From Catajapyx aquilonaris (Eukaryota), in NCBI GenBank assembly GCA_000934665.2, contig JYFJ02000077.1, positions 186,001-250,000 of the forward strand: a stretch of DNA of 64,000 nucleotides, given 5' to 3'. The position numbers were made by a program, and so were the translations under genes. The notes under the pieces are model-generated. The model saw nothing but the letters and a program-made list of their open reading frames with translations, did not search any database and had not been told where the DNA came from. Shown in pieces: positions 1 through 13,797 of the stretch. Each line of letters begins with the position of its first letter. Position 1 is the first letter of the stretch.

Positions 1-397
1 ACAAAAGTCGGGAGACAACCGCCGCGTTGGAGACGAAGCAGTTCCGCGATGTTTTGCCTGACCCACCCTACAGTCCAGACCTAGCCCCCTGTGACTTCTG
101 GCTATTCCTGAAGATGAAGGAACATCTGAAGGGCAAGAGTTTTGCGTCCGACGAAGAGGTCGCCAATGCAGTGCTTTGTTGGTGTCGTAAACAGCCAGCC
201 TCGTTCTTCTCTGACGGCATGCAAAAACTAGTGCGTCGAAGGCGGAAGTGCATCGCCGTCGGTGGAGATGTCGAAAAATGAATTGCTCCTCGGAAAGTGG
301 GCATTTCAAACTTTTATTTTGAATGTGACATCTTTCATGGTCATCCATTAATAAATAAGTTACAGACCAGGGGGCAAAATTTATTGAACAACCCTCG
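1..397 (+). mobile_element. 3' part of a mariner (Tc1/mariner) transposon, truncated by the window edge
   Basis: Transposase C-terminus followed by a mariner-type right TIR (...AAATTTATTGAACAACCCTCG, ending 397) and TA at 398-399. Confidence 0.9.
27..281 (+). pseudogene. Mariner transposase C-terminal fragment
   Basis: ORF contains PPYSPDLAPCDFWLF (the mariner YSPDLAPxD motif with the third catalytic Asp) and a typical tail (LKGKSF..DEEV...FFSDGMQKLV.R..KCI...GD.EK). Confidence 0.9.
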
Positions 398-408
398 TAT
401 GTATAGTA

Positions 409-1299
409 CAGAACCTTTTATTACGAATGTTACGACTCTATATGGACAAAAAGGTTATTCTGTTTCCAACCCCTGGGTTACCAGCATGTTTTTATGGATC
501 CTGAGGAAGGCTGGAAAAAGGCAATTAAAATCAAGAAAAAAAGAGGAAAAAAACAAGGGGAAGTAAGAAAATTTAAGGGGGGAAATTCATCTCAAATCTA
601 CTTAAAGGGACACTCCACTCAAAATGCAAGTTGGACTCTAAAAATCGGGCAAGAAATCCTGATTCCGAGTGTATAAGCAGTTTTTCTGAGAGACGAACGG
701 TAAGGCCAGGGCGAGCCGTCAAAGTTAGGCAATTCGAATCTGCCGCAAAACAGCAGCGCCTCTCCCGGGACTGGGCAGACATTGGCATATTCCTGCGCCA
801 TCTTGATCCACGCCATGGTCCGCGCCATCTTTGGTCCGTCCCACAGGTTTATCCCGCCACCTCTTGACCCGACCCGACTTTCAGTATTTAAACACTTTCG
901 CCTAGCGCCCAGTGGCGGCGCTCACGGCGGTGGCGGACTGGGCTGGCGGGGCAGCTCATTAGCAGACGACGCAAATTATGAGTCTTTAACGCCTCGTCCT
1001 GGCTTTTCTGTTCCGCGTAGAAAAAAACCGATTGCACCTTCGGAATCAGGATTTTTTGCCCGATTTTTAGAGCCCAACTTGCATTTTGAGTGGAGTGTCC
1101 CTTTAAGCATTGTACCAGGTTGAACATTTTGGTAATGAAAATTTTCGGAAAAAGTCGGGATGGGGTCATACGGGTTCCCCAGAGGTCGAGGACAAGATGT
1201 CCATAAGGTTGCGATGAAATCCGTTTGGGAATAATGTTGGATAGTCAGGATAAACATGTCGTCCATAGAGTCGTACATCATTCTTTATGAACGGGACTG
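409..1299. mobile_element. Old TA-flanked non-autonomous Tc1/pogo-type element hosting a nested MITE
   Basis: Left end TA|CAGAACCTTTTATTACGAATGTTACGACTCTATATGGAC resembles the reverse complement of the right end TA|CAGTCCCGTTCATAAAGAATGATGTACGACTCTATGGAC. TA flanks at 407-408 and 1300-1301. Confidence 0.6.
606..1102. mobile_element. Kolobok-like MITE (TTAA TSD, AG...CT termini)
   Basis: TTAA at 602-605 and 1103-1106. About 60 bp of near-perfect TIR (AGGGACACTCCACTCAAAATGCAAGTTGG...), with degenerate inverted similarity further inward. Purine termini fit Kolobok rather than piggyBac (CC). Confidence 0.8.
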
Positions 1300-1743
1300 T
1301 ACATATGTGTCTAACCCATAAGTCTTGAGCAGTTACCATGACCACATTAATATGTTATTGCAGGTTTGTCATTCTACAGAAATTAAGTTCAGGTACAAAC
1401 CTCAGGCACATTAATCAATGCTTGAAAAAAATTAATTGTGACCTGTTACTTATACAGTGAAACCTGTCTATAATGGACCCTTGATGCAGGGGAACTCGGG
1501 TAACAGAATTTGGTTTTGGCCTGGTGGAGGATGTTCAATACATTTTTGTCATATAAAGGGCAACCTGCATGTTTCATAAAATATTTGCTGTATGGAATGC
1601 TATAGGCTGCATTCAGTACTCTTTCAACTGCCCTTTTAAGACTTTTTGAAATTAGATATTGCCCAAATTAGTCCACTCTGCAAGACTAATTTCTGGTAAA
1701 GTGAATCAGGAGCATAATTATATTGATGGACTTTCTTCTGCAG

Positions 1744-2064
1744 GTGTGCACTTGGCAACCCTTCCCCCACCACCTCCGCCACAGCACCGTGTGTCACCTC
1801 ACCACTCACCAATGGATGAGGAGAAGAAGCGTGGAATGGAGTCGGAACTCATGCAAAGACTCACAACTGCAGCAGCTACTGCTGCATATGAGTCTGATGG
1901 GGCTGCCTTCCATGGTGGGGATGGAGGAGACAGGAAGGGGGGCAGTGGTGGTTCAGGAGGGGGCAGTGGTGGAGGAGGAGGTGGAAGTGGGAGTGCAGCG
2001 AGTGGTGCAGAAGGAGAAGCATCTGGTGGAAGGAATGAGGAAGGGGAAGGTGCAATGCCTGAAG
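1744..2064 (+). CDS. chinmo: Internal coding exon of chinmo orthologue (Pro/Gly-rich linker)
   Basis: Acceptor ttcttctgcag|, donor GAAG|gtagtt; phase 1 at both ends; open frame VHLATLPPPPPPQH...GGSGGG...MPE. Confidence 0.7.
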
Positions 2065-2128
2065 GTAGTTGTGGCTTAGTTGAGGCATATGTGTCAGGGA
2101 ACTTATCTCGGTGGTGTAATTATTCCAG

Positions 2129-2323
2129 ATTTGAGAATCAAAATGGAGCCTAGGGATGGTAATGCCAAGTCTGGTCAGCAGCAGCAGCATCGTTATTCGG
2201 ATGAACGTTCTAATAAGCACCCTGCTACACCCCATGTCATAGAAACTCAGGGGTGGGCAGTGGCCTCTTTTGCTCAACGAGTACCTGAAGGGACTGAGGG
2301 AGCAACAGTACAAAGTGCTGAAG
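2129..2323 (+). CDS. chinmo: Internal coding exon of chinmo orthologue
   Basis: 64-nt GT-AG intron at 2065-2128; acceptor tattccag|, donor GAAG|gttagt; phase 1/1. Encodes DLRIKMEP...TVQSAE, giving SAEG|KKLKC, similar to the ...TADGKKLKC I recall for Drosophila Chinmo. Confidence 0.75.
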
Positions 2324-2774
2324 GTTAGTGGTAACAAATTTTTAAAACTAGTACAGTAACTTGGGATGCCAGCAAGCCTGGTTTTTCTTATTCAACCTTT
2401 ACCTCTTGCTGTATGGAAATTATGTACCTAGACATATGAAGTTACAACCTTGGTAATATAAATGTGATATTGCACAACTTATAGCATCAAACTGATAATT
2501 TTGTGAAATCCTGAAATGTATATGGCTGCTGCATTACTAAATGCATATGCTATGGGCACAGTGATATGGGCATTTTTGCCGTAATGAACCAAGGTTCGGA
2601 CTATTTTCAACAAACTTTCATTGCGATTTGCCATGCTTGTGGAAAACCTATGGGGATGCTGTTTTTTCTATCAAGTTTCCAGGTAGAGAGGACTGCATTT
2701 TGCCACAGCTGCAGTGGTATAGCATGTGCAATATTTTTCAGAGGTTTTGAGTGCTTCATTTTTCTCACACACAG

Positions 2775-3271
2775 GCAAAAAGCTCAAGTGCCCGTTTTGT
2801 GACCGCCTATACGGCTACGAGACGAATCTGCGTGCGCACATCCGCCAGCGTCACCAGGGCATTCGTGTGCCCTGTCCCTTCTGCACCCGCACCTTCACCC
2901 GCAACAACACTGTGCGCCGGCACATTGCCCGGGAGCACCGTGGCCTCCTCACCATCCGTGGTTTGCAGCAGCAGCCAAGGGTACCTCCTTTGCCGACCGC
3001 TGCCCCCCAGCCTCCAACATCACATTCTTCGCAGCAGACCCCACCCAGGAGTGTTGTTGTGACTAACCCACCATCCTCATACGTGTCAGTCGTGACCTCC
3101 TCTGGGGGTGTCCCTACCATTACACACTCCTCTGCCCCACCACCCTCTCAGGTCAACTCTGGTGGTGGAGGCTATCCAGGACCCACCCAGGGGCAGCCAC
3201 CACCCTCACCAGGCCAGCAACAGACCTCTCACTCAGACCTGGGGCGACCACCGTCGGGATTTGGCCAGTGA
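2775..3271 (+). CDS. chinmo: Terminal exon of BTB-zinc-finger transcription factor Chinmo (two C2H2 fingers)
   Basis: Acceptor tttttctcacacacag|, phase 1. KKLKCPFCDRLYGYETNLRAHIRQRHQGIRVPCPFCTRTFTRNNTVRRHIAREH is near-identical to the Chinmo finger pair as I recall it. TGA stop at 3269-3271. The BTB exons lie upstream of the window. Confidence 0.92.
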
Positions 3272-3922
3272 GCGGTCATAATTGAGTATAATATTTCCCT
3301 GCCCCTTTTTTTAAACAAATGAATATATGATAATGGTAAGCTCCCACCCCAAAACACTACAAACCACATCCCTTTTTTTATACACCAGAACTGTTGTTTT
3401 TGTTCGGTTACGTTTTTAGAGAGGAGGGGATGAAGTAGGGAAGTGCTAAACCACATAGGTAATAACTAATATTCTATGGCCATGAATTTGCTTTATTCAG
3501 TGAAATTAGTTAAGCGTATAAAATTATTTTTAAACCCATCGACACACCAAGTGAAATGCTTATGTGATTGAGTAGGTGATGCATTGTGTTCTCCTCTAAT
3601 ACACAGTTTACACAGATACAAAATTCTTTGGAAAGTAAGCATTGTGCCAGGGCTAGTTGTATCAGCAAAGAGTAGGGGAAATTAATATTCTGATTGTGTA
3701 TGACATCCACAATTGGATAGTTTCGTATAATTTGCCATGCTACAACCAGCCCTTGATGCTGAAATGGGTGATTCCAGTATGCTTGCTTTTGGTTCAAAAT
3801 AAATTGGCAGTTAATTTTTTTGTCACAAAGTTCAGATAGACTCTCAAGGAATTTATTAGGACCGACCATGCCCGTTAAGGTTTATTCTACCTCCATAACT
3901 TCAAGAGTGGGCGAGAGTTATA

Positions 3923-4356
3923 CAGGTGACTCCGGATGTACCAGCCTCAGCTCTAACAGATTCTTGGTTATAGCAGACTCGAAAAGCTGGCCCCACCACA
4001 CATCCATATATGGCCTGTGTATTTGACTATAACAGACCTTGGTTATAGCCATAATGTTCTACTTGGCACTGGCGTCGGTCCACAGAGCACTACTTTTAGG
4101 GTCATGTTTGGGTAAAAGGTTTTTTTGAACCAACCTACCATCCTCTCTGTGCAGCTGGGTCAGTAGAATAATTTCCAGAGCCAGCCACCTGAACAAGGCC
4201 CGAAGTAGTGCTCTATGGAGGGACGGCAGCGTCAAATCCGTGTACAGCTAAGTTCACGCACAGGGGGAGGTATTTGCGCGACCTAAGTAATAGGCCGCAG
4301 TTATAGCTGACTGATTTCTGTGGTTCATTGAAGACTGTTACATCCAGAGTCTACTG
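3923..4356. mobile_element. pogo/Tigger-like MITE
   Basis: TA|CAGGTGACTCCGGATGTACCAG on the left versus reverse-complement right end TA|CAGTAGACTCTGGATGTAACAG; repeated subterminal GTTATAGC motifs; TA flanks at 3921-3922 and 4357-4358. Confidence 0.7.
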
Positions 4357-5095
4357 TATATACCATTGGACAGTACATTACAATAGAGACTGTCCAAGGG
4401 TATGGTATGTAGGACACCTGTCCACATTTCAAGATAAAACAACAGGGGTGAACATTCAAGCAATTTCCACCATTGTGGATCAGATCTGACTTCTTCTGCC
4501 CAGTATAAACCAAATTAGAAATAAGTTTGAAAATTATAAATAACATAATCACCTATTTAGGCATTAGCAGCATATTTGTTTTGTGCTGGTAGAAGCCAAT
4601 CTTCCAAATTGGAACTTGTCATTACTTTTTATTTTATCACATTCTACTTTGCATTTGTCAGGAACATATAAACTGTAAGGTCTTCAGTGCAACTTCATTT
4701 GCTTTGAAATATTTTGCAATGTAAAATAAAGAATCATCATGCTGATCGATAAGAAACAGAAGTTACATAGGGTGTGATGAAGTATAGGAGGATCCTTTTT
4801 CATAAAAATGGCATGAATGCATTGTCAAAACCAAGTGACAAGGTTTTATTATTCTGAGCAATATTGAGGTGCAGGATTTTCACATGTGCTAGTCACTGAT
4901 CACTCAACTTGCATGATGTCATGAAACAAGAAAGATTGGCAATGATGGAGAATGCAACAAGCATCTGAGATATGTCCAGTGGTTTGCTATGTTGCAAATA
5001 TTTACCACATGATGGCCTGACAGGTTCTGTACAGCATGCTCACCTGCAAGGGCAGTTCTCAGGTTGTTCTTAGGGCTCCTTTCTCACAGAATTTA

Positions 5096-5827
5096 CGAGG
5101 GCGAATCAGAAAGCAATTGAAAACTTTTTAAATTCAGAAGTTTTACTAGAGAAACTGAAACTGAGATATACATATGAAAGGGCAAGTCTTTCTCTAATTT
5201 TAGACATAGTCACCATACAATTTGGTGCATTTTTCTCAGCAGGACACTAGCTTTTCCATACCCCTGCAGAAAAAAGCGTCAGACTGGGTGGGAAGGCAGT
5301 GGGGGATGACCTCTTTCACTTCCTGGATGTTGCTGAAGTTCTTACCTGCCATGTGCTTCTTCATTGGTCCAAAGAGATGGCAGACCTTGGTTAAAACCAT
5401 CTCTTTGGACCAAAAAAGAAGCACCTGGCAGGTCAGAACTTCAGCATGGGTGGTAAGCCAGTGTGGGATGGCCTCTTTCACTTCCTCAATGTCGCTGAGT
5501 TCTTGAGATGCTAGTTCTTTTTTGGTCCAAAGAGGTGGTTTTACCCATGGTCTACCATCTCTTTGGACCAATGACGAAGCACCTAGCAGGTAAGAACGTC
5601 AGCAACATTGAGGAAGTGAAAGAGGCCATCCACCACTGGCTTCCCACCCAGTCTGATGTGTTTTTCTGCAGGGGTATGGAAGAGCAAGGGTCCTGCTGGG
5701 ACAAATCCACCAAAGTGTATGGTGACTATGACTAAAATTAGAGAAAGACTTGCCCTTTCGTATGTATATCTCATTTCAGTTTCTCTAGAATTAAAAAAGT
5801 TTTCAATTACTTTCTGATTCACCCTTG
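5096..5827. mobile_element. Palindromic (foldback) mariner-derived element built from transposase 3' ends
   Basis: TA|CGAGGGCGAATCAGAAAG...CTTTCTGATTCACCCTTG|TA. Inverted arms of ~280 bp both encode a mariner C-terminus (HLFGPM.KH.AGKN.SNI.EVKE.I..WLPTQSD.FFCRGME) on opposite strands. Confidence 0.9.
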
Positions 5828-6504
5828 TATGATTGATTGATTGGACTTTTATTTGTGCAAGAGCAGCATTAGCTATACTGAGCCAACATTACTCGCACCT
5901 GGTGAGGCTTGTGATTGAACTTGTTTCATCAAAATAATGTAAAACACTGCAAATAAGTAAAACACTCTTATACTTAATAACTTGCGCCCTGGGAATCATA
6001 ATACGTATCTTCTGCAGTTGCACATGTATTGCCCTTTAAATTGTTCTGCTGTTCCATTATTTTCATTGGACATGCTCGGTGACTAGTGCATGTGGAATTC
6101 CCAATTATTGCACTGTGTATAGGAAAGACAATGTGATTAGATTGTAATTGTTCTGACAATGAATTAATTTTTTTGCATGCATGTTTGGCCAATAATTCTA
6201 CTACTTGAGACGAAGCCAATTTTGTGGTTATCTGTAATATGTGATTTTGCACTCTCCCCTTCCAGTTGATGATCATGATAATTGAAGGCAGACTGGAGAA
6301 ATTTTAACTTCTGGGTTAAAGAAAGGGCAGAGTAGAATTTATTTATAGAGTCGGATGAGTATCTCATAGGCAGGTGTACTAGCACCTCATTTATTCGGGC
6401 AGTTTGCAGCATGTAGGGCCAGGTGGCCAGTCTTGGGAGGTGATTGCTGACCTAAAAGGTCCAACCCAAGAGGTAAGCCACACTGCTACTACTTTTAAGC
6501 TGTC

Positions 6505-6526
6505 ACATTACATACCTACTACCTCA
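6505..6526 (+). promoter_or_regulatory. Near-perfect let-7 complementary site
   Basis: ACATTACATACCTACTACCTCA versus let-7 reverse complement ACTATACAACCTACTACCTCA: miRNA nt 1-13 pair perfectly, one bulged T, then nt 14-17 and 20-21 pair. Confidence 0.85.
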
Positions 6527-7357
6527 AGTTTTATGTTTTTGGATGCATTTTTTTTATCTCCTCAAATATTATCAGGTTTATAGCCATGAAGTATTCCCCT
6601 CCTCTCACCTTGTAAAAGAACATTCAGTTAAAGGAAAACCGCCCGCTCAGGTACTTTAGTTTCTAGATTAGATGTATTTCACCCCAGCCCCCGCCAACTA
6701 ATTTTATATAGCAATGGAAAAAGTACAAACTTAACCTACACTGCAAAGCTGTTTGGTTTTTTAATCCAGCAATGCTCATCATATAGTTTTTACTGATGCA
6801 TTATTTGTTTTTATCTCAAGTTCAAATACATCTCAATTCAGGGCTCTGTACAGGTACAACAGTCATGATTCTCTGATTGTTGGATTCATTGTCCTTGTCT
6901 GACTCTATGTTTTTACTGTCTCTGCAAGCAGATATTCCGGGTAACAAAATATTCAATTCCTCTGTTGTCTTAAACCTTCATGCAGCTTGAGTTGGTGTTG
7001 TTTTCTTAGTGTTCGTGGTTTTTTTTTTTGCTGTTGAATTATTTTTTTCTGGTTGCAAGTGGACAATTTTATTGGTCATGGGCCCCTAGTTGTGTCATGG
7101 TGGCTGTGCTGTGGATACGTAAAAATAATTGTGGGCAGTTTTTTTTATAGTAAATTGATATGGGAGAGTTAGCCACCATTAAAATTGTCCATAGTTGGGA
7201 AGTATGATACATGACAACAATGTTGTGTGTTCTTGTGTTTGACTCTCAAGTGTGTTCTTCTGTTGCTCATAAGTAAGATTTCATGTCATGGTTTTAACAT
7301 GTATATGGGCATGTTGACTAACAGTTTAATTAGCATAATCAAGTTGCAATTATTGCA

Positions 7358-7364
7358 TACCTCA
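7358..7364 (+). promoter_or_regulatory. let-7 7mer-A1 seed site
   Basis: TACCTCA, about 30 nt upstream of a miR-125 seed match. Confidence 0.5.
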
Positions 7365-7376
7365 GGCTTTTTTAAA

Positions 7377-7400
7377 GTAAGTTGGGATTTGCTTCAGGGA
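7377..7400 (+). promoter_or_regulatory. miR-125 site with 3' supplementary pairing
   Basis: GTAAGTTGGG-ATTTGC-TTCAGGGA versus miR-125 reverse complement TCACAAGTTAGGGTCTCAGGGA: seed match TCAGGGA plus pairing to nt 11-20 with G:U wobbles. Confidence 0.6.
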
Positions 7401-8462
7401 CGGTACAATCAATCGTTGCAAAGGGTTTCTTTTTAGGTTTATTTTTGGTGCTACAAAAGATGCTTCAGAAGATGCATACAAATTTGTTTTTAGGGCCATT
7501 GTTGGATGTGCATGACTCAGTGCAGTCATGAACCACTATCGCAATAGTTAAACAGTTGAAACGCATACCGGTATTTACCTCGTAGGATAGCCACTCAAGT
7601 TTTACACAATCAATCAGGTGCTGGTAACAATCATAAACATGGTTACCTTTTCAAGACGGGTTTGTGAGCAGTTTATTTGTACCTTGTGTCATCTGTGCAA
7701 TTGTTGCAAATCTAGGATCTGAATGGGTTTGTGATGTGGTGCTGTTCAACAATGACAGCATAGAATTTGAGTCATTGAGATCAAGAAAGGGATAGGTGAC
7801 GGTATGGTCAGTATATGACAAGTTCCCCTATGATTCCACTGCAAACAAGTTGCTCTTGAGTAAATGCAAGAAATATGTCATTTGGTACTCTTATGAAATG
7901 GCGCCAATTGAGGCTGCCATAATGGCTTTTGCTTAAGAATTCAGGGCCTGTGGAGTCATTGATGGACTAGTGCATGAACATACCAGCAAAAGTAACGTAA
8001 TTTTATTAACAGACTTTTATGATATGGGAATTGTTTGTAATATTTTTAAATGTGGAAAATTAAATTCATCCCTGAAATTGAACGAAGCTTAATTTTTCTG
8101 GTATGAGTAGGCATCACTGACACAACAGATCTGGATTTGTAACACATTGTAATGTCTTAGATCTGAATTTATGATTAGTTTAAGTTTGTAATTAAGTGAT
8201 ATGTGGTGCGGTCAAATTGCAATATATATTTTTAATCGCCTCCTTGCCCCAAGTCCATAAGGTATGAAATCTTACTTATCATACACCTTGTTTTGCTGTG
8301 TCTGCCGAAGCAGACTACTTTGTACAATTTTGTTCGAGTCACGTTGGGCATTGTCAATCAGCATGTGGGGAGAAAAGAAGAAAAAAAAATAGACTTTCTT
8401 GTTTTACCCCGGCTTAAAAAGAAAAAAATCACAGCACACTGGCTAGTCATGACCAACAGGTA

Positions 8463-8482
8463 AACTGTTACAGATTACCTCA
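8463..8482 (+). promoter_or_regulatory. let-7 7mer-A1 site with 3' pairing
   Basis: AACTGTTACAGATTACCTCA: TACCTCA at 8476-8482, preceded by AACTGTTACA resembling the complement of the let-7 3' end (ACTATACA). Confidence 0.55.
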
Positions 8483-8905
8483 CACAGACCTCAGGAAAAT
8501 AGAGTTACATGGTACAATATCAGTTTTAAAAAATGAAAAAAAAATAGAGAAAGATTAACCCGTACCATTTTTATGATTGTAGTGTTTAAGTTTCTATCTT
8601 TATTCTTATATGTACATAATATATTATAAACACAGTATATTTGCTTTGTAATAGTAGTTTAGCAAGAGTAGATTTTAGAGCTTGTGACTGCGTCAAGGAA
8701 AGGGACAGTTGTCCAGTTTTATTTGCCTGTTTTTTTTTGTAAGTAGGGTTATGTGTGCCTAACATGGAGAGCACAGGTGGAAATGTAACGGAGGTGACTT
8801 TCTTTACCATGATGTTACATTGAGTGTGGCACAAGTCGTGAGCCCCAGGCGCCTCCTCCCAGTGTAATGTGTGCTTTTCATGGATGTTTTAGAGATGGGA
8901 TGGCA

Positions 8906-8913
8906 TACGGGTT
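8906..8913 (+). promoter_or_regulatory. miR-100 seed match
   Basis: TACGGGTT is the exact complement of miR-100 nt 1-8 (AACCCGUA). It is a single site. Confidence 0.35.
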
Positions 8914-9961
8914 GCGCAGTGGTACCTAATAGCAAAAAAACCCCACATAAATGCAGTAGTCAAAAAAAATTGTCAGGTTTTTCCAATACTTCCAGGATAG
9001 TAACAAATTATGGTACAAGTGCCAATACCAATTTTTGGCTTGACAAGTATCACTGCCGACCGCTTTTTCTAAGAAAAATAAAAGAGACAAATAGATAATA
9101 AGTCACCACATACAAATATTTAAGGTACCTCTAACATGGCACACTCAATGTTGGCGGAAGTATTTTTGTCTTGTGCTCTTCAAACCTCATTCAGCTGTAC
9201 CTCTTACCTGTTGCATTGTTTGTGGTACAACTTCCCACAAATGAGCCGGTAAATGCAACTAACAATAGGTTGTGTTCCCAGTTACACAACATTATGATGC
9301 CAGGATTTTTTTTACTCCCACTCTCAACAGACAAACTGTAACCCGAAGTACAAAGGCTGTCAGTTTCAAGTGCAAGTTTGAAGCAAAATATAAATAAATA
9401 AGTAAAGAAATTCAGAAAATAAATAAAAAGTAAAAAATAAAACAAAAAGTGTTGGAAGGAAGGGTGCGAATTTTTTCCCTTGGAAAGACGATAGTGTAGA
9501 TTCTTACTTGTGACATGTTTGATTTGATTATTTTTTGAGACACTGTATCAAAGTTGTTGATTGGTGGAAAGGTTCACATTTAGTGATCACGGGAGTGCAC
9601 ATGACATTCACATGAAATGTGGCAGGATGTGTAGGCAGTTGCACTCAATTTGTGGATTATAAAAAAAAAAAGAGTACTGTATAATGCTATCTATGATGTG
9701 ATTGAGGAGAGTTTTTTGAGGATCTATTTAGAGCCAAACTGCAGTGTATTAGCAGTTGGATTATATTATACTATGGAAAGATTTTTTATTTTGAGGGGGG
9801 GTGGGGGGATGAGCAAATGAAAAGCAGAAAAGTTTGGGGGAAATTTTTTGGCCCTTAGTAATCAGGAAAGTGTTCACATATACAGGATTACCCGACCAAG
9901 ATATAAGTTGCTTTTCTCTGTGTGAGATCATTTTGAGGCAGTCTATTTATTTTCCATTAAA

Positions 9962-9968
9962 TACCTCA
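9962..9968 (+). promoter_or_regulatory. let-7 7mer-A1 seed site
   Basis: TACCTCA. Confidence 0.4.
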
Positions 9969-10883
9969 TAGGATTTGTTCCAGAATTTTACAGGGAAGTT
10001 AGGCTTGAGACTAAATGACTCCCCAAAGCAGGTTTCTACAGCCGATGTTCCACCAGTTTCACTCAGGTTTAATATAGGTAACCAGGCAAAGTGATTTTTA
10101 TTTCCAGTTACAGAGAATCAACTGATGCATAATAACAGTGAGCTTAACTGGCAGCAAAGCTCAATTTTAATGCTTGAGTCAGAAAAAGTACCAATAATAA
10201 TAATCAGTTGTTTCCTCAATCTGCATACCTTTAAAAAAAAAATTATCTATCACCTTCCTCCTCTTTGTGGGTGTGTTATTATGGTCTTATTAGGTTGATA
10301 AAAGAAGCACAGCACGGTATCATCATAATTTAATTGTTGCAAAGCTGCAATAATTTACTGCAGAGCAGTGTATTACTTTCTAAGTTGGCAATCAATTGCG
10401 ATATATGCAGAGCTTTTTCAAATCGTTAATGAATTTGGCACTATATTATTATGAATTATATTTCTTTTTTTGCTAACTTTAGATTAACAAGTGTTGACAA
10501 ATGATTTTGAAGGTTGTGTTTGTTGAAAGTTTAGACTCTATTTGTTGGATTGGCTTTGAAAACATTATGTTCTGCATTATTTGTGTGTGTGTGAGAGTGT
10601 GTGCCATATTATGCATGCGTTTTAAAAATATATAAGTCAACCTTGATGGAACAAATGTGTGATTTTGTGTGGTTATGACAGAAATTTTATGTGGTATTTG
10701 TCTAATTTCCACTTTCAGCCATTAATATATTACACACTTTTATTTGAAAGGCTATGTTTTCAAGCAGAAATTAACTGACGTTGTGGATTTTTGGGTAATG
10801 AATCGGCTGTTAACAGGAATTACATTCACATTTTTAAAAACTCTTTCCAACATTTGGCACAAGTATTACAATGGATCATAACT

Positions 10884-10891
10884 CTACCTCA
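10884..10891 (+). promoter_or_regulatory. let-7 8mer seed site
   Basis: CTACCTCA. Confidence 0.55.
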
Positions 10892-12616
10892 CGATGAGTT
10901 TTGACTTTGTAAAAAGTTGTAATGTGAAAATATAGGGCAATTATGTTGGCAATTTAAAAATTGTCTACCTACTCTGCTCCCCCATAATGTAATGAAAAAA
11001 GGCATGATAAAAAAGTGTAACTTAACTACTCACACATGCATTGCAGCCACTGTGAAGTATTCATTATTGCAATGAGAAAAAATTCGTGTGGGTGAATTGT
11101 TGTTGTGTATGGTGTTTGTCTATATTCGAGGGAGTTTGCACTGATGTTCCAATATGAAAGCAGTGCCATTTTTATCTTTCTTTCATTTAAAAAAAAGCAG
11201 AAACAAAAATGGATGTACGGTGTTGTGCAGAGGTTCTTTTCACTTTGTTTTTCCAGAGCAAATCTTTCACTTCATTAGCCCGTGGCATAGGTGTTGTTGG
11301 AAAAGGAAAAAAAAAAAGAAGCAGGGTCATGCATGACGTGTGAAAATTGAGCATGAATATAATTTTTTATGTAGTGTTGCTTCAGGTGTGTGCTAATACA
11401 TTGTATTGGGAACATAAAAACCAAATATTTATAAATTGTGACTTTTTGGAAACTGAATGTGTCCCAATTTGTTTGGATTAAAAGTCAAAGAGTAGGCATA
11501 GCTTGTAGCAACAGTGACATATCTAGCAAGCACATTTGAAGACGTCCACTTACACACACTGTAAGCTCTTTCAAAATGGATAGCAAGTATTTTATTGGGT
11601 AGCTCGAGAAGAAATGCGAGATGATTAGGTAGAAATAGGCGCAAGTGCATTGAGGACAAGTAACGTTGAAGACTAATGTAAATGGCTCAATTTTATCTCA
11701 GATGTGACTGCATCATGCGTAAACCTCGTCAGTTTTTGAAATGCAACTCAGCCCAGTGGTTGCTGGTCAGTACATAGAATTGGAAGATTATGCTCTGTGC
11801 AAATTCAGTTACAATGGAACAAAAGTAAAAATCTGCGCTATTACTTGCTGCTGACTAACCATAATTAATGGAGAGACTTACCAAGAAACATTTTTGTATT
11901 TGAATCTTTGTAAGTGGTGCCGAACCACTTGTGATCACAGTTGTGCTCTTTCTTACTTAAGATGTGCTGACATGAAAATAACGTGATCTGAAACTTACTG
12001 TTTCCAGTTACGTAACTATTGACTGTTTACTTTTCAACATCACAGCAGACTGTAAACGAAATGACAGGGTATATTTTGCTCTGTACGTGTACGATATGTG
12101 CCTAGGGATACTTTCTGGGATGTCTTGACGTCCATTTGCTACGGTACAGATAGAGAACATGCTATTTACATAGTTGGCTAAGTTTTTTGCAGAAAAATGC
12201 CTTGCATTGTGCACTGATGGCCAGTTTTTATTAGAGAATTTTTCAATCTCCTTCAAACTTCATGAAATACCAAAGTCTCAAGTGCTACAGCAATTGTGCA
12301 TTAAGTGTGATGTGGAAAAAAAAAACTACACCTTTGGATATATGTCGACACATGAGTTTTTCCCTGTCTGTGCATTGTAAAACGATAACAATATTACAGC
12401 TTGAGGTACGAGTAGATGAAGTGAAAAAAATAGCATTATAAGTGCATATATTTTATCACTGCATGTGGTACCAAGTAGATAAACCAGGTGTCGTCACAAA
12501 TGTGTGGCATTTTGAGCAGTTACATACCATTTATGACTGTAATTTTTTTTTGTGGTTGTTGTTCATGTACAGTTGATTGTTATCCCTCTGGATATATAAA
12601 AAAAAACATATTTTAA

Positions 12617-12622
12617 AATAAA
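12617..12622 (+). terminator. Candidate distal polyadenylation signal of chinmo
   Basis: AATAAA followed by TTTTGTTGTCTTCTG; sequence composition changes within the next ~0.7 kb. Confidence 0.45.
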
Positions 12623-13797
12623 CCAGTGACATTTTGTTGTCTTCTGCATCTTGTTGCCTTTTAATGGTAACCTGACTATTCTGCTTACCCCCAATCCACA
12701 GGAGGAGATTATTGGATAGGTATGGATTACGTGCTTGGGGAAACTACATCATGCGCTTCCCAAGGGAGGAAAGTCAGTCAACGTCACGTTGCTATTGGGC
12801 CTCCAGGTCATCTTTCCTGAGCACATGCATTCTACTCTGTCAACTACACTAGTGGGCTGTGTCGTAGTCCTCGGTTTCCTCCCTAATGTTTTTTAGTGCT
12901 TGTACTTAATACTGTGATGGGAGTTGCTGCATGTCTTCCTGTGACTGAAGTGATTTCCATCCCAATTGAGTGGATCTCAAGAAAGACTGGCATTCAAAAG
13001 AGTGGTGTGAAAAATGGGATTAGTGGCCGTGATAGAGGTCGTGTTATAGCTAAGGAGCAAAATTGTATGTATGGTGTTTACTGCATGCACAGTGCGGTTG
13101 TGAAATGAAGTGCCATGAGTTAGTTTGGCATTTGCATCATTTAATATATTTACTGTTTACACACGGGATGTTCATATAGACAGTGAGGTTGGATGTACAT
13201 TATACTGTAGTTTGTTATCAATTAAACTATGACATATTTTAAATGTTATCTTGGCAATAGTATGGGCAAGTCAAGGTGAAGGATGATATTTTGTACTGTA
13301 CAAATGGGCCAAAGTGCACAAATCCAACGACCTATACATAATGTATAATGCGGGGAATTTCAATAACATTTTTAAAAATAACGCCGATGAATCTTGTTGA
13401 AATACTGGGATGAAAAAGGGTCTGATACCTTCAAAAGTTTCCTTATTTTCACAATTTACTTAAAAATGTCGATGGTCTTTGATCGTGTCAGGTAAGTTTT
13501 GCTTTATTCCTCTCATACCAGGTCCCTTCTCCCTAGGACTATAGGCCAAGATGTCAGATTTTTTTAAAAAACCTTTGGAGGCACTGTCACTTTATTACAT
13601 TGTGGTGGGTGGAGGGGGGAGGGAGAGAGAAATCCCACTAGTCGTTGGACCATAGGACAATTTTTTATTGTCCTTTCAAATGCAACGAGAGGAAATCTAC
13701 TTGCTCTTTCCACCGGATCGATTAAAAATGGGTTTCTTTTAAGATTCAAAGCGGCTGTCTCATCGAAATAGGGAATACGTATATTATTATTGAGTGT

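What the first reader, a model, noticed from the sequence alone, without database searches (positions are those of the whole stretch)
6505..6526. Near-perfect, potentially sliceable let-7 site downstream of chinmo
Seen: 19 of 21 let-7 nucleotides can pair (nt 1-13 contiguous Watson-Crick, one target bulge, nt 14-17 and 20-21), on the sense strand 3.2 kb after the chinmo stop. Established: Drosophila chinmo is repressed by let-7 and miR-125 via its 3'UTR; most animal sites pair only through the seed; pairing across nt 10-11 permits Argonaute cleavage. Inference: this species may shut off the juvenile-stage factor Chinmo partly by let-7-guided slicing, an unusual mode in animals and a sharp developmental switch.
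Basis: partly seen in the sequence, partly recalled or inferred. Interest (0 to 1): 0.85.

Follow-up and report, generated by a model that had tools for sequence, protein, structure and literature searches.

The report
Near-perfect let-7 site after chinmo
A 22-base stretch 3.2 kb after the stop codon of an arthropod chinmo gene matches the let-7 microRNA almost completely; it is most likely the strongest of six let-7 sites in a long untranslated tail, an old and widespread arrangement, while actual cutting of the message there is possible but untested.

Summary
Window 6505-6526 (+) pairs with let-7 nt 1-13 without a break, then has one bulged target base, then pairs nt 14-17 and 20-21. The exact 13-mer occurs once in the window and in 0 of 100 shuffles.

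The gene upstream is a chinmo orthologue. Its last exon is 2775-3271, with the stop at 3269-3271.

No RNA data could be obtained, so membership in the mRNA is inferred:
- Six let-7 sites of 7 nt or more lie on the sense strand between 3887 and 10891.
- The let-7 6-mer match ranks 2 of 4095 6-mers for enrichment there.
- In 74 chinmo loci from metagenome contigs, let-7 sites downstream of the stop number 131 on the sense strand and 7 on the antisense strand. CTACCTCA is the most strand-biased of 6026 8-mers.

The extended pairing is not a shared feature. None of 75 sites in 38 dereplicated loci pairs contiguously past nt 11. Random flanks reach the observed energy in about 0.2% of trials.

Slicing is biochemically plausible, because fly Ago1-let-7 cleaves centre-paired sites in vitro (PMC12905440), but it is unproven here.

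Verdict: an ordinary, conserved let-7-chinmo link with one unusual, lineage-specific site.

The parts
1656..2328 (+). Upstream coding segment(s) of the chinmo orthologue. Two overlapping open frames are present, and the frame change or small intron between them is not resolved.
   Evidence: ORFs 1656-2153 and 2080-2328. The second carries PDLRIKMEP, which matches the PEDLRxKxE block of the chinmo alignment consensus.
2775..3271 (+). Last coding exon of the chinmo orthologue: two C2H2 zinc fingers plus a Pro/Ser/Gln-rich tail. The stop codon TGA is at 3269-3271.
   Evidence: A polypyrimidine tract and AG lie at 2773-2774. Pfam zf-C2H2 matches. The best database hits are named chinmo, with 73-95% identity in the aligned part, which includes the finger region. 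46 columns are invariant in the alignment with 18 homologues.
3272..11000 (+). Inferred long 3'UTR. The true end is unknown: the last let-7 site ends at 10891, and possible poly(A) signals lie at 3798, 4725, 9077, 9393-9436, 11477 and 12617.
   Evidence: The stretch from the stop to 11000 holds no ORF of 130 aa or more. Nine of the window's 29 TACCTC 6-mers (both strands) lie here on the + strand, rank 2 of 4095 6-mers. No + strand TACCTC occurs between 12001 and 20000. The end coordinate was chosen after seeing the sites.
3887..3893 (+). let-7 7mer-m8 site
   Evidence: duplex -10.8 kcal/mol.
6505..6526 (+). The finding: a let-7 8-mer site extended to nt 13, a 1-nt target bulge (6513), then pairing to nt 14-17 and 20-21. 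The would-be scissile bond is 6516/6517.
   Evidence: The seed-matching bases 6521-6526 are predicted 0.98-1.0 unpaired in a +/-150 nt context.
7358..7364 (+). let-7 7mer-A1 site
   Evidence: -16.4 kcal/mol.
7394..7400 (+). miR-125 7mer-A1 match, 36 nt after the let-7 site at 7358
   Evidence: The miR-125 sequence is printed in PMC4979967.
8476..8482 (+). let-7 7mer-A1 site
   Evidence: -16.2 kcal/mol.
9962..9968 (+). let-7 7mer-A1 site
   Evidence: -10.0 kcal/mol.
10884..10891 (+). Second let-7 8-mer site, seed-type only
   Evidence: -16.0 kcal/mol; predicted unpaired probability 0.85.

Best explanation
6505-6526 is a genuine let-7 response element. It is the strongest and most accessible of six in the long 3'UTR isoform of this arthropod's chinmo orthologue.

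When let-7 rises late in development, let-7-loaded miRNA Argonaute (Ago1 class) binds the 8-mer seed match. Together with the five seed-type sites, it represses chinmo by the ordinary route of deadenylation, decay and translational block.

The pairing beyond the seed is specific to this lineage. It makes endonucleolytic cutting between 6516 and 6517 chemically possible, but repression does not need it.

Shown: the sequence match, the chinmo identity, the strand-specific site cluster, and the wide conservation of let-7 sites after chinmo stop codons.

Inferred: that the transcript reaches the site, that this species' let-7 has the canonical sequence, and the mode of repression.
For: - Pairing geometry and energy.
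- Best let-7 duplex in the window.
- Site counts in the window: six let-7 sites of 7 nt or more on the + strand in 3272-11000, five in the remaining roughly 56 kb of the + strand, and six on the whole - strand.
- Enrichment in 3272-11000: TACCTC ranks 2 of 4095 6-mers, and TACCTCA ranks 7 of 16,086 7-mers.
- Related loci from metagenome contigs: downstream of the stop, 131 sites on + against 7 on - over 183,171 nt in all 74 loci. In 38 clusters dereplicated at 90% identity, 75 against 7, and 27 of 29 representatives with at least 1 kb downstream carry a site. In 26 groups with no detectable downstream DNA similarity to each other, 46 against 5, and 8-mers 27 against 0.
- Unbiased test: CTACCTCA is the most strand-asymmetric of 6026 8-mers (25 loci against 0).
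- Sites lie as far as 4.4 kb and 9.9 kb after the stop in other loci. The Drosophila 3'UTR is 8.5 kb (PMC7192631 passage), so 3.2 kb is an ordinary distance.
- Drosophila chinmo carries verified let-7 sites (PMC4979967 passages).
- The seed match is predicted open: 0.76 against a background of 0.35 +/- 0.20, n = 50.
- For fly Ago1-let-7, seed-only and fully complementary targets bind about equally well (5 against 2 pM; PMC12905440 passage), so canonical action does not depend on the extension.
Against: - There is no transcript evidence for this species. AATAAA signals at 3798 and 4725 could end many transcripts before the site.
- The 11000 boundary used was chosen after the sites were seen.
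- If the extension has no function, its occurrence (about 0.2% per 8-mer site) has to be luck.
- The many related loci are not phylogenetically independent. Several clusters keep sites at similar offsets.
- The species' own let-7 could not be read, because no genome is held.
Confidence: 0.6

Rival explanations
1. Slicing switch. let-7-loaded Ago1 cuts chinmo mRNA between 6516 and 6517. Because the cut is irreversible, this contributes materially to a sharp shut-off of Chinmo.
For: - Watson-Crick pairing is contiguous over nt 1-13, spanning the scissile position, with four more pairs after one bulge.
- Fly Ago1 keeps slicer activity. When loaded with let-7 it cleaved 11-nt centred sites (g4-g14, g5-g15) about as well as a full complement in vitro (PMC12905440, section 13 read whole; assay buffer 3.5 mM Mg).
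- Extended pairing adds almost nothing to binding affinity. If the extension was selected at all, it was selected for something other than affinity.
- The extension is unlikely by chance: 113-143 of 60,000 trials.
Against: - Pairing is interrupted by a target bulge after nt 13, and nt 18-19 are unpaired.
- The same paper notes that, for mammalian AGO2, centred-site cleavage needs more than 2 mM Mg, while cells hold less than 1 mM.
- Fly Ago1 is recalled to be a slow, product-inhibited nuclease (Forstemann 2007; cited in PMC12905440 but not read).
- None of 75 let-7 sites after chinmo in 38 dereplicated loci pairs contiguously past nt 11. None of 48 8-mer sites reaches -22 kcal/mol. Slicing is therefore not the ancestral or common mode.
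- Five other let-7 sites make slicing dispensable.
- No degradome or RACE data exist.
Confidence: 0.17
2. Target-directed effect on the miRNA. The highly complementary site exposes the let-7 3' end to tailing, trimming or degradation, so abundant juvenile chinmo mRNA holds let-7 down. This would be a double-negative switch.
For: The review PMC6175985 (passages) states that in fly lysate a seed match with up to 8 mismatches at the miRNA 3' end is enough to trigger tailing and trimming. This site pairs nt 1-13 plus six more, which exceeds that threshold. Animal miRNAs lack the protective 3' methyl group (same passages).
Against: - Known triggers pair extensively with the very 3' end and usually carry a central bulge ([abstract of 10.1101/2024.12.11.627053], 46). 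Here the centre is paired and nt 18-19 are open.
- A single site per mRNA must be abundant relative to let-7 to matter.
- No small-RNA data exist.
- It is not a shared feature of chinmo UTRs.
Confidence: 0.06
3. No function at this position. Either the transcript ends upstream or the stretch is intronic or intergenic, or the site is bound but the match beyond the seed is pure chance in neutrally drifting sequence.
For: - There is no RNA evidence.
- Proximal poly(A) signals lie at 3798 and 4725.
- A transposon-like palindrome at 5094-5829 lies between the stop and the site.
- The first stage screened very many windows, so a 0.2% event will turn up somewhere.
- Extension beyond nt 8 in other lineages is at chance level: 11 of 56 sites paired at nt 8 continue to nt 9, against 14 expected.
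Against: - let-7 sites flank the position on both sides and only on the sense strand.
- The same strand bias holds in unrelated lineages out to several kb.
- The site region is unique in the window and predicted accessible.
Confidence: 0.15

Closest known systems
let-7 (and miR-125) sites in the Drosophila melanogaster chinmo 3'UTR (Wu et al. 2012, not held; Chawla et al. 2016, PMC4979967, passages and supplement file 5)
   Same: The target gene is the same orthologue and the miRNA is the same. [quoted passage not shown]
   Different: This site pairs with 19 of 21 let-7 nt, including the centre. I could not see the pairing of the fly sites, because S6 Fig is an image and the deletion oligos omit the seeds. 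miR-125 matches are sparse here: one 7-mer in the inferred UTR.
let-7 site 2 of Drosophila abrupt, another BTB zinc-finger gene, used as the 'verified' site in the PMC4979967 sensors
   Same: It is an extensively paired natural let-7 site (nt 1-9, 11-15 and 19-21, according to the S6 Fig legend).
   Different: The abrupt site is unpaired at nt 10, which blocks slicing. The site here is paired at nt 9-13.
Centred and fully complementary targets cleaved by fly Ago1-let-7 in vitro (PMC12905440, section 13)
   Same: The guide is the same, pairing runs across g10/g11, and the predicted cut is at t10/t11.
   Different: Those are synthetic RNAs in 3.5 mM Mg. The natural site pairs g1-g13 rather than g4-g14 or g5-g15, and it has a bulge before g14.
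miR-196-directed cleavage of HOXB8 mRNA in vertebrates (Yekta et al. 2004; recalled, not read) and frequent miRNA-guided cleavage in cnidarians (PMC3975064; title and start of abstract only)
   Same: These are natural animal miRNA sites with near-complete complementarity that are sliced.
   Different: Cleavage was shown there by mapping the products. The miRNA, target and Argonaute differ. Nothing comparable is shown here.
TDMD triggers (review PMC6175985, passages)
   Same: A seed match plus extensive further complementarity within an mRNA.
   Different: Typical triggers leave the centre unpaired and pair the extreme 3' end. Here it is the reverse.

Membership tests
chinmo orthologue (BTB plus two C2H2 zinc fingers) | C-terminal pair of C2H2 fingers with the chinmo signature (KCPFCxRLYGYETNLRAHIRQRHQGIRVPCPFCxRTFTRNNTVRRH) | tested here: met
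   Pfam zf-C2H2 matches. 46 invariant columns with 18 homologues. Best hits are named chinmo in many insects and a springtail.
chinmo orthologue (BTB plus two C2H2 zinc fingers) | N-terminal BTB/POZ domain in the same protein | not testable with these tools
   The BTB exon is not in the window, and no genome is held.
Canonical animal let-7 8-mer site | Watson-Crick match to nt 2-8 plus A opposite nt 1 | tested here: met
   CTACCTCA at 6519-6526.
Canonical animal let-7 8-mer site | Lies in the 3'UTR of an expressed mRNA | tested here: inconclusive
   Support is indirect only: the strand-specific cluster and the same pattern in other lineages. No RNA data.
Canonical animal let-7 8-mer site | Conserved in orthologous UTRs | tested here: inconclusive
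   At gene level it is conserved: 27 of 29 dereplicated loci with at least 1 kb downstream carry a site. This particular site could not be aligned to any locus, because there is no UTR similarity.
Sliceable (siRNA-like) miRNA target site | Uninterrupted pairing across nt 9-12, around the scissile bond | tested here: met
   nt 1-13 are contiguous.
Sliceable (siRNA-like) miRNA target site | Continuous pairing on to about nt 16-17 (a requirement recalled from Argonaute kinetics work) | tested here: not met
   One target bulge (6513) interrupts the helix between nt 13 and nt 14; nt 14-17 pair after it.
Sliceable (siRNA-like) miRNA target site | Cleavage product with its 5' end opposite nt 10 | not testable with these tools
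   No degradome or read data.
TDMD trigger | [quoted passage not shown] | tested here: not met
   The centre is paired and nt 18-19 are unpaired. The looser fly-lysate criterion (up to 8 mismatches at the 3' end; PMC6175985) is met.
let-7 family pre-miRNA on the opposite strand | Hairpin that matches Rfam let-7, or a stable fold | tested here: not met
   No Rfam hit at the gathering threshold in the window. No let-7 hit at E <= 10 in 6200-6850. The minus-strand fold has z = 0.14 against shuffles.

The most novel reading that the evidence does not exclude
In this lineage one let-7 site in chinmo has evolved near-full complementarity so that the miRNA-class Argonaute slices the mRNA. That would be a natural let-7-guided cleavage target in an arthropod, adding an irreversible step to the juvenile-to-adult switch. 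Alternatively, the same site may feed back on let-7 stability.
Probability: 0.17. Interest if true: 0.75.

Novelty: new variant of a known kind. Interest (0 to 1): 0.4.

Why it matters
Regulation of chinmo by let-7 is established in Drosophila. This work adds three points.

First, the link appears to be old and widespread. The let-7 8-mer is the most strand-biased 8-mer after chinmo stop codons in dozens of unnamed arthropod contigs.

Second, those sites are normally seed-only.

Third, this genome carries one exception whose geometry the fly miRNA Argonaute can cut in vitro.

Natural slicing by a bilaterian miRNA is rare. A validated case in a core developmental-timing pair would interest both the miRNA field and the metamorphosis field. 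It would also give a natural substrate for asking when Ago1-class proteins slice in vivo. Without RNA data it remains a candidate.

Tried and rejected
- Whole genome: none is held, so the species' own let-7 and Argonautes could not be read.
- Sequencing runs: no RNA holder was listed. The single holder, X1, is of unknown kind. I therefore have no read evidence of any kind.
- Antisense let-7-like miRNA gene (the minus strand begins like let-7): rejected. No Rfam hit and no stable hairpin.
- Repeat or transposon origin of the site: rejected. The only repeat in 3272-12700 is the palindrome at 5094-5829.
- Orthologous UTR alignment: the 74 related loci share only the zinc-finger coding segment with the window (68-84% identity). 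No UTR similarity was found, so no close relative is available.
- The 13-mer is absent from all 74 loci.
- chinmo in bacterial or archaeal genome contigs (possible host contamination): none.
- Earlier notes of this scan: nothing relevant.
- Wu et al. 2012 is not held. S6 Fig of PMC4979967 is an image, so the pairing of the fly chinmo sites was not seen.
- The bacterial-type promoter/terminator scan of 6000-7000 is irrelevant to a eukaryote.
- Print search: the searches listed no paper describing a near-perfect let-7 site in chinmo or a let-7 cleavage product of chinmo. Only listings were seen, and most subscription papers are not in the library.

Full report
OBSERVATION. Window 6505-6526 on the + strand reads ACATTACATACCTACTACCTCA. 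The let-7 sequence used throughout is the one printed in PMC4979967 (methods passage; hairpin oligo in supplement file 5). RNAduplex pairs let-7 nt 1-17 with one bulged target base (T6513) between the partners of nt 13 and 14. It leaves nt 18-19 open and pairs nt 20-21. The duplex energy is -26.0 kcal/mol, against -34.7 for the perfect complement. The 13-mer 6514-6526 occurs once in the window and in 0 of 100 dinucleotide shuffles. No second copy appears even with two mismatches allowed. The site is the best let-7 duplex among 42,585 sliding windows on both strands; the next best is -23.0.

GENE CONTEXT. The open frame 2723-3271 (+) holds two C2H2 fingers. A polypyrimidine tract and AG at 2773-2774 place the exon start at about 2775, and the stop is TGA 3269-3271. 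In a search of longer proteins, the best hits are BTB-zinc-finger proteins named chinmo in many insects and a springtail. Identity is 73-95% over the aligned part, which includes the finger region, and no hit is near-identical. The alignment with 18 of those hits shows 46 invariant columns in the fingers. An upstream frame (2080-2328) carries the PDLRIKMEP block of the family. The BTB exon is outside the window. By similarity it is an arthropod, and its tail is most like springtail proteins. Apart from the chinmo exons, the window holds no ORF of 130 aa or more that I could assign to a gene.

IS THE SITE IN THE mRNA? I could not get direct evidence; see the paragraph on limits. Four lines of indirect evidence exist.
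- On the + strand, let-7 sites of 7 nt or more lie at 3887, 6519 (8-mer), 7358, 8476, 9962 and 10884 (8-mer). That is six in 7.7 kb, against five in the other roughly 56 kb of that strand and six on the whole minus strand.
- Against all k-mers, TACCTC is the second most enriched of 4095 6-mers in 3272-11000 (+), behind only TTTTTT. TACCTCA ranks 7 of 16,086 7-mers. The right-hand limit was chosen after seeing the sites, which inflates this somewhat. Even so, no + strand TACCTC occurs between 12001 and 20000.
- The site region is single-copy. The only repeat between the stop and 12.7 kb is a palindrome at 5094-5829.
- In a +/-150 nt fold, the seed-matching bases are predicted open: mean 0.76, with 6521-6526 at 0.98 or more, against a UTR background of 0.35 +/- 0.20 (n = 50). 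The other 8-mer scores 0.85.

COMPARATIVE EVIDENCE. A scan of metagenome contigs with the chinmo alignment returned 74 loci that carry the zinc-finger exon. They share only that coding segment with the window (68-84% DNA identity) and show no UTR similarity, so none is a close relative.
- Downstream of their stop codons there are 131 let-7 sites of 7 nt or more on the sense strand and 7 on the antisense strand, over 183,171 nt.
- After dereplication at 90% identity (38 clusters, longest downstream representative kept), the counts are 75 against 7. Of 29 representatives with at least 1 kb downstream, 27 have a site.
- With a stricter grouping (26 groups with no detectable downstream similarity to one another), the counts are 46 against 5, and 8-mers are 27 against 0. 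Of 18 groups with at least 1 kb downstream, 16 have a site.
- In an unbiased test, CTACCTCA is the most strand-asymmetric of 6026 8-mers (25 loci against 0), and CTACCTC is first of 9516 7-mers (27 against 2).
- Sites occur up to 4.4 kb and 9.9 kb after the stop (L001, L014).
- By best protein hit, the loci resemble springtail, beetle, fly, ant, louse and mayfly proteins and a large unnamed group (rough labels only).

The let-7-chinmo link therefore extends far beyond Drosophila, and a let-7 site 3.2 kb into the UTR is ordinary. The searches listed no paper that shows this outside Drosophila. The two non-Drosophila papers I opened mention it only by citation.

IS THE EXTENDED PAIRING MORE THAN CHANCE? 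Within this UTR, three sites are paired at nt 8. The chance that one of them continues through nt 13 is about 3 x 4^-5 = 0.003. By energy, an 8-mer with random flanks reaches -26.0 or lower in 113 of 60,000 trials (real 18-mers from the UTR) or 143 of 60,000 (composition-matched).

Other lineages show no such tendency. Among the 75 dereplicated sites, the last contiguously paired nt is 7 (19 sites), 8 (45), 9 (6), 10 (3) or 11 (2), and never 12 or more. Of the 56 sites paired at nt 8, 11 continue to nt 9, against 14 expected. The 48 8-mer sites have mean energy -16.47, against -16.64 for shuffled-flank nulls (Mann-Whitney p = 0.64). None of the 48 reaches -22, where the null fraction is 0.025.

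The site is thus a real outlier. It is also a single, lineage-specific one, and the window was picked from a very large scan. Selection for the extension is possible, not demonstrated.

REJECTED ALTERNATIVE ANATOMY. The minus strand begins like let-7, so I tested for an antisense let-7-family hairpin. No Rfam family reaches the gathering threshold in the window. No let-7 hit appears at E <= 10 in 6200-6850 on either strand. The minus-strand fold is no better than shuffles (z = 0.14).

MECHANISM. The most likely reading (confidence 0.6) is canonical repression. let-7-Ago1 binds the accessible 8-mer and, together with the five other sites, recruits the deadenylation and decay machinery, as established for fly chinmo (PMC4979967 passages; PMC9169713 passage).

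Slicing (0.17) is biochemically allowed. PMC12905440 (section 13 read whole; methods passage) reports that fly Ago1 cleaves between t10 and t11. It also reports that Ago1-let-7 cut 11-nt centred sites about as well as a full complement, in 3.5 mM Mg. Its binding data show that seed-only and fully complementary targets bind alike (5 against 2 pM). So if the extension is adaptive, it is adaptive for something other than affinity. Four points count against slicing:
- the bulge after nt 13;
- the paper's own caveat about Mg (stated for mammalian AGO2);
- the recalled slow turnover of Ago1;
- the absence of such sites in other lineages.

A third reading (0.06) is that the site exposes let-7 to tailing, trimming or decay. 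The review PMC6175985 (passages) gives a fly-lysate threshold of a seed match with up to 8 mismatches at the 3' end, which this site exceeds. However, its geometry (centre paired, nt 18-19 open) is not that of known triggers. The remaining 0.15 is that the site is not in the mRNA, or that the extension is meaningless.

NOVELTY AND VERDICT. Already known: let-7 regulation of chinmo through a long 3'UTR, rare sliced miRNA targets in animals, and slicing by fly Ago1-let-7 in vitro. New here: the breadth of let-7 site conservation after chinmo, the finding that those sites are seed-only as a rule, and this one exception. I rate it a new variant of a known kind, with interest 0.4.

LIMITS.
- No genome is held.
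- The run search listed one holder of unknown kind and no RNA holder.
- Wu et al. 2012 is not held, and the figure showing the fly site pairings is an image that I could not read.
- The related loci are unnamed contigs of unknown tissue and type. Their downstream sequence is assumed to be UTR only because of the strand bias.

Noticed in passing
Loci L001-L074, downstream of the chinmo stop; window 4331 and 12983 (+): AAGACTGA, the 8-mer match to the miR-14 seed, is the second most strand-asymmetric 8-mer after chinmo stop codons (22 loci on the sense strand against 1 on the antisense, of 38 representatives). The miR-14 sequence was recalled, and I saw it labelled miR-14 only in a search listing. 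The window has the 7-mer AAGACTG at 4331 and 12983. Ten papers hold both 'chinmo' and 'miR-14'; none was read.
   Followed up: partly
Loci as above; window 7115 (+): ATACGTAA is also strongly strand-biased after chinmo stops (14 loci against 1) and occurs once in the inferred UTR at 7115. From recall only, it matches the seed of the Hox-cluster miRNA iab-8-5p.
   Followed up: no
window 5094-5829: A 736-nt palindrome (arms 83% identical) with mariner-like transposase fragments readable on both strands (ORFs 5236-5598 on the minus strand and 5499-5735 on the plus strand). It lies inside the inferred 3'UTR. If transcribed it would form a long hairpin.
   Followed up: partly
window 7358-7400 (+): A let-7 7mer-A1 (7358-7364) and a miR-125 7mer-A1 (7394-7400) lie 36 nt apart. 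This spacing is close to the 15-35 nt range that PMC4979967 cites for enhanced reporter repression by neighbouring sites.
   Followed up: no
L004, 647-851 nt after the stop: Seven let-7 sites spaced 27-38 nt apart, apparently a tandem array of let-7 sites in one beetle-like chinmo locus. The locus has 10 sites in 4,070 nt.
   Followed up: no
L021, L022, L026, L033, L035, L037: Separate 90%-identity clusters keep let-7 sites at similar offsets from the stop: about +350-460 and +520-665 in all six loci, and about +3,300-3,450 in L021, L022, L035 and L037. This is position-level conservation, including a site more than 3 kb into the UTR. L021 has one uninterrupted frame (447-2546) that runs through the finger match to the stop, which fits an origin from spliced mRNA.
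   Followed up: partly
All 74 loci, upstream of the stop codon: let-7 sites of 7 nt or more are also strand-biased before the stop codon (47 sense against 9 antisense over 161,026 nt). Whether they lie in coding sequence, 5'UTRs or introns was not examined.
   Followed up: no
window 3272-11000 (+): Other k-mers are enriched on the sense strand of the inferred UTR. TGTGATT has 6 of its 16 occurrences there (it contains the K-box TGTGAT), and TGTGTTC has 4 of 8. From recall only, these match the miR-2/13 family and miR-317 seeds.
   Followed up: no
window 1-1300: Transposon debris lies in the intron upstream of the chinmo exons: a mariner-like transposase fragment (3-281 +) and inverted copies of a short element (similar peptides in ORFs 577-867 on the plus strand and 976-1284 on the minus strand).
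   Followed up: no
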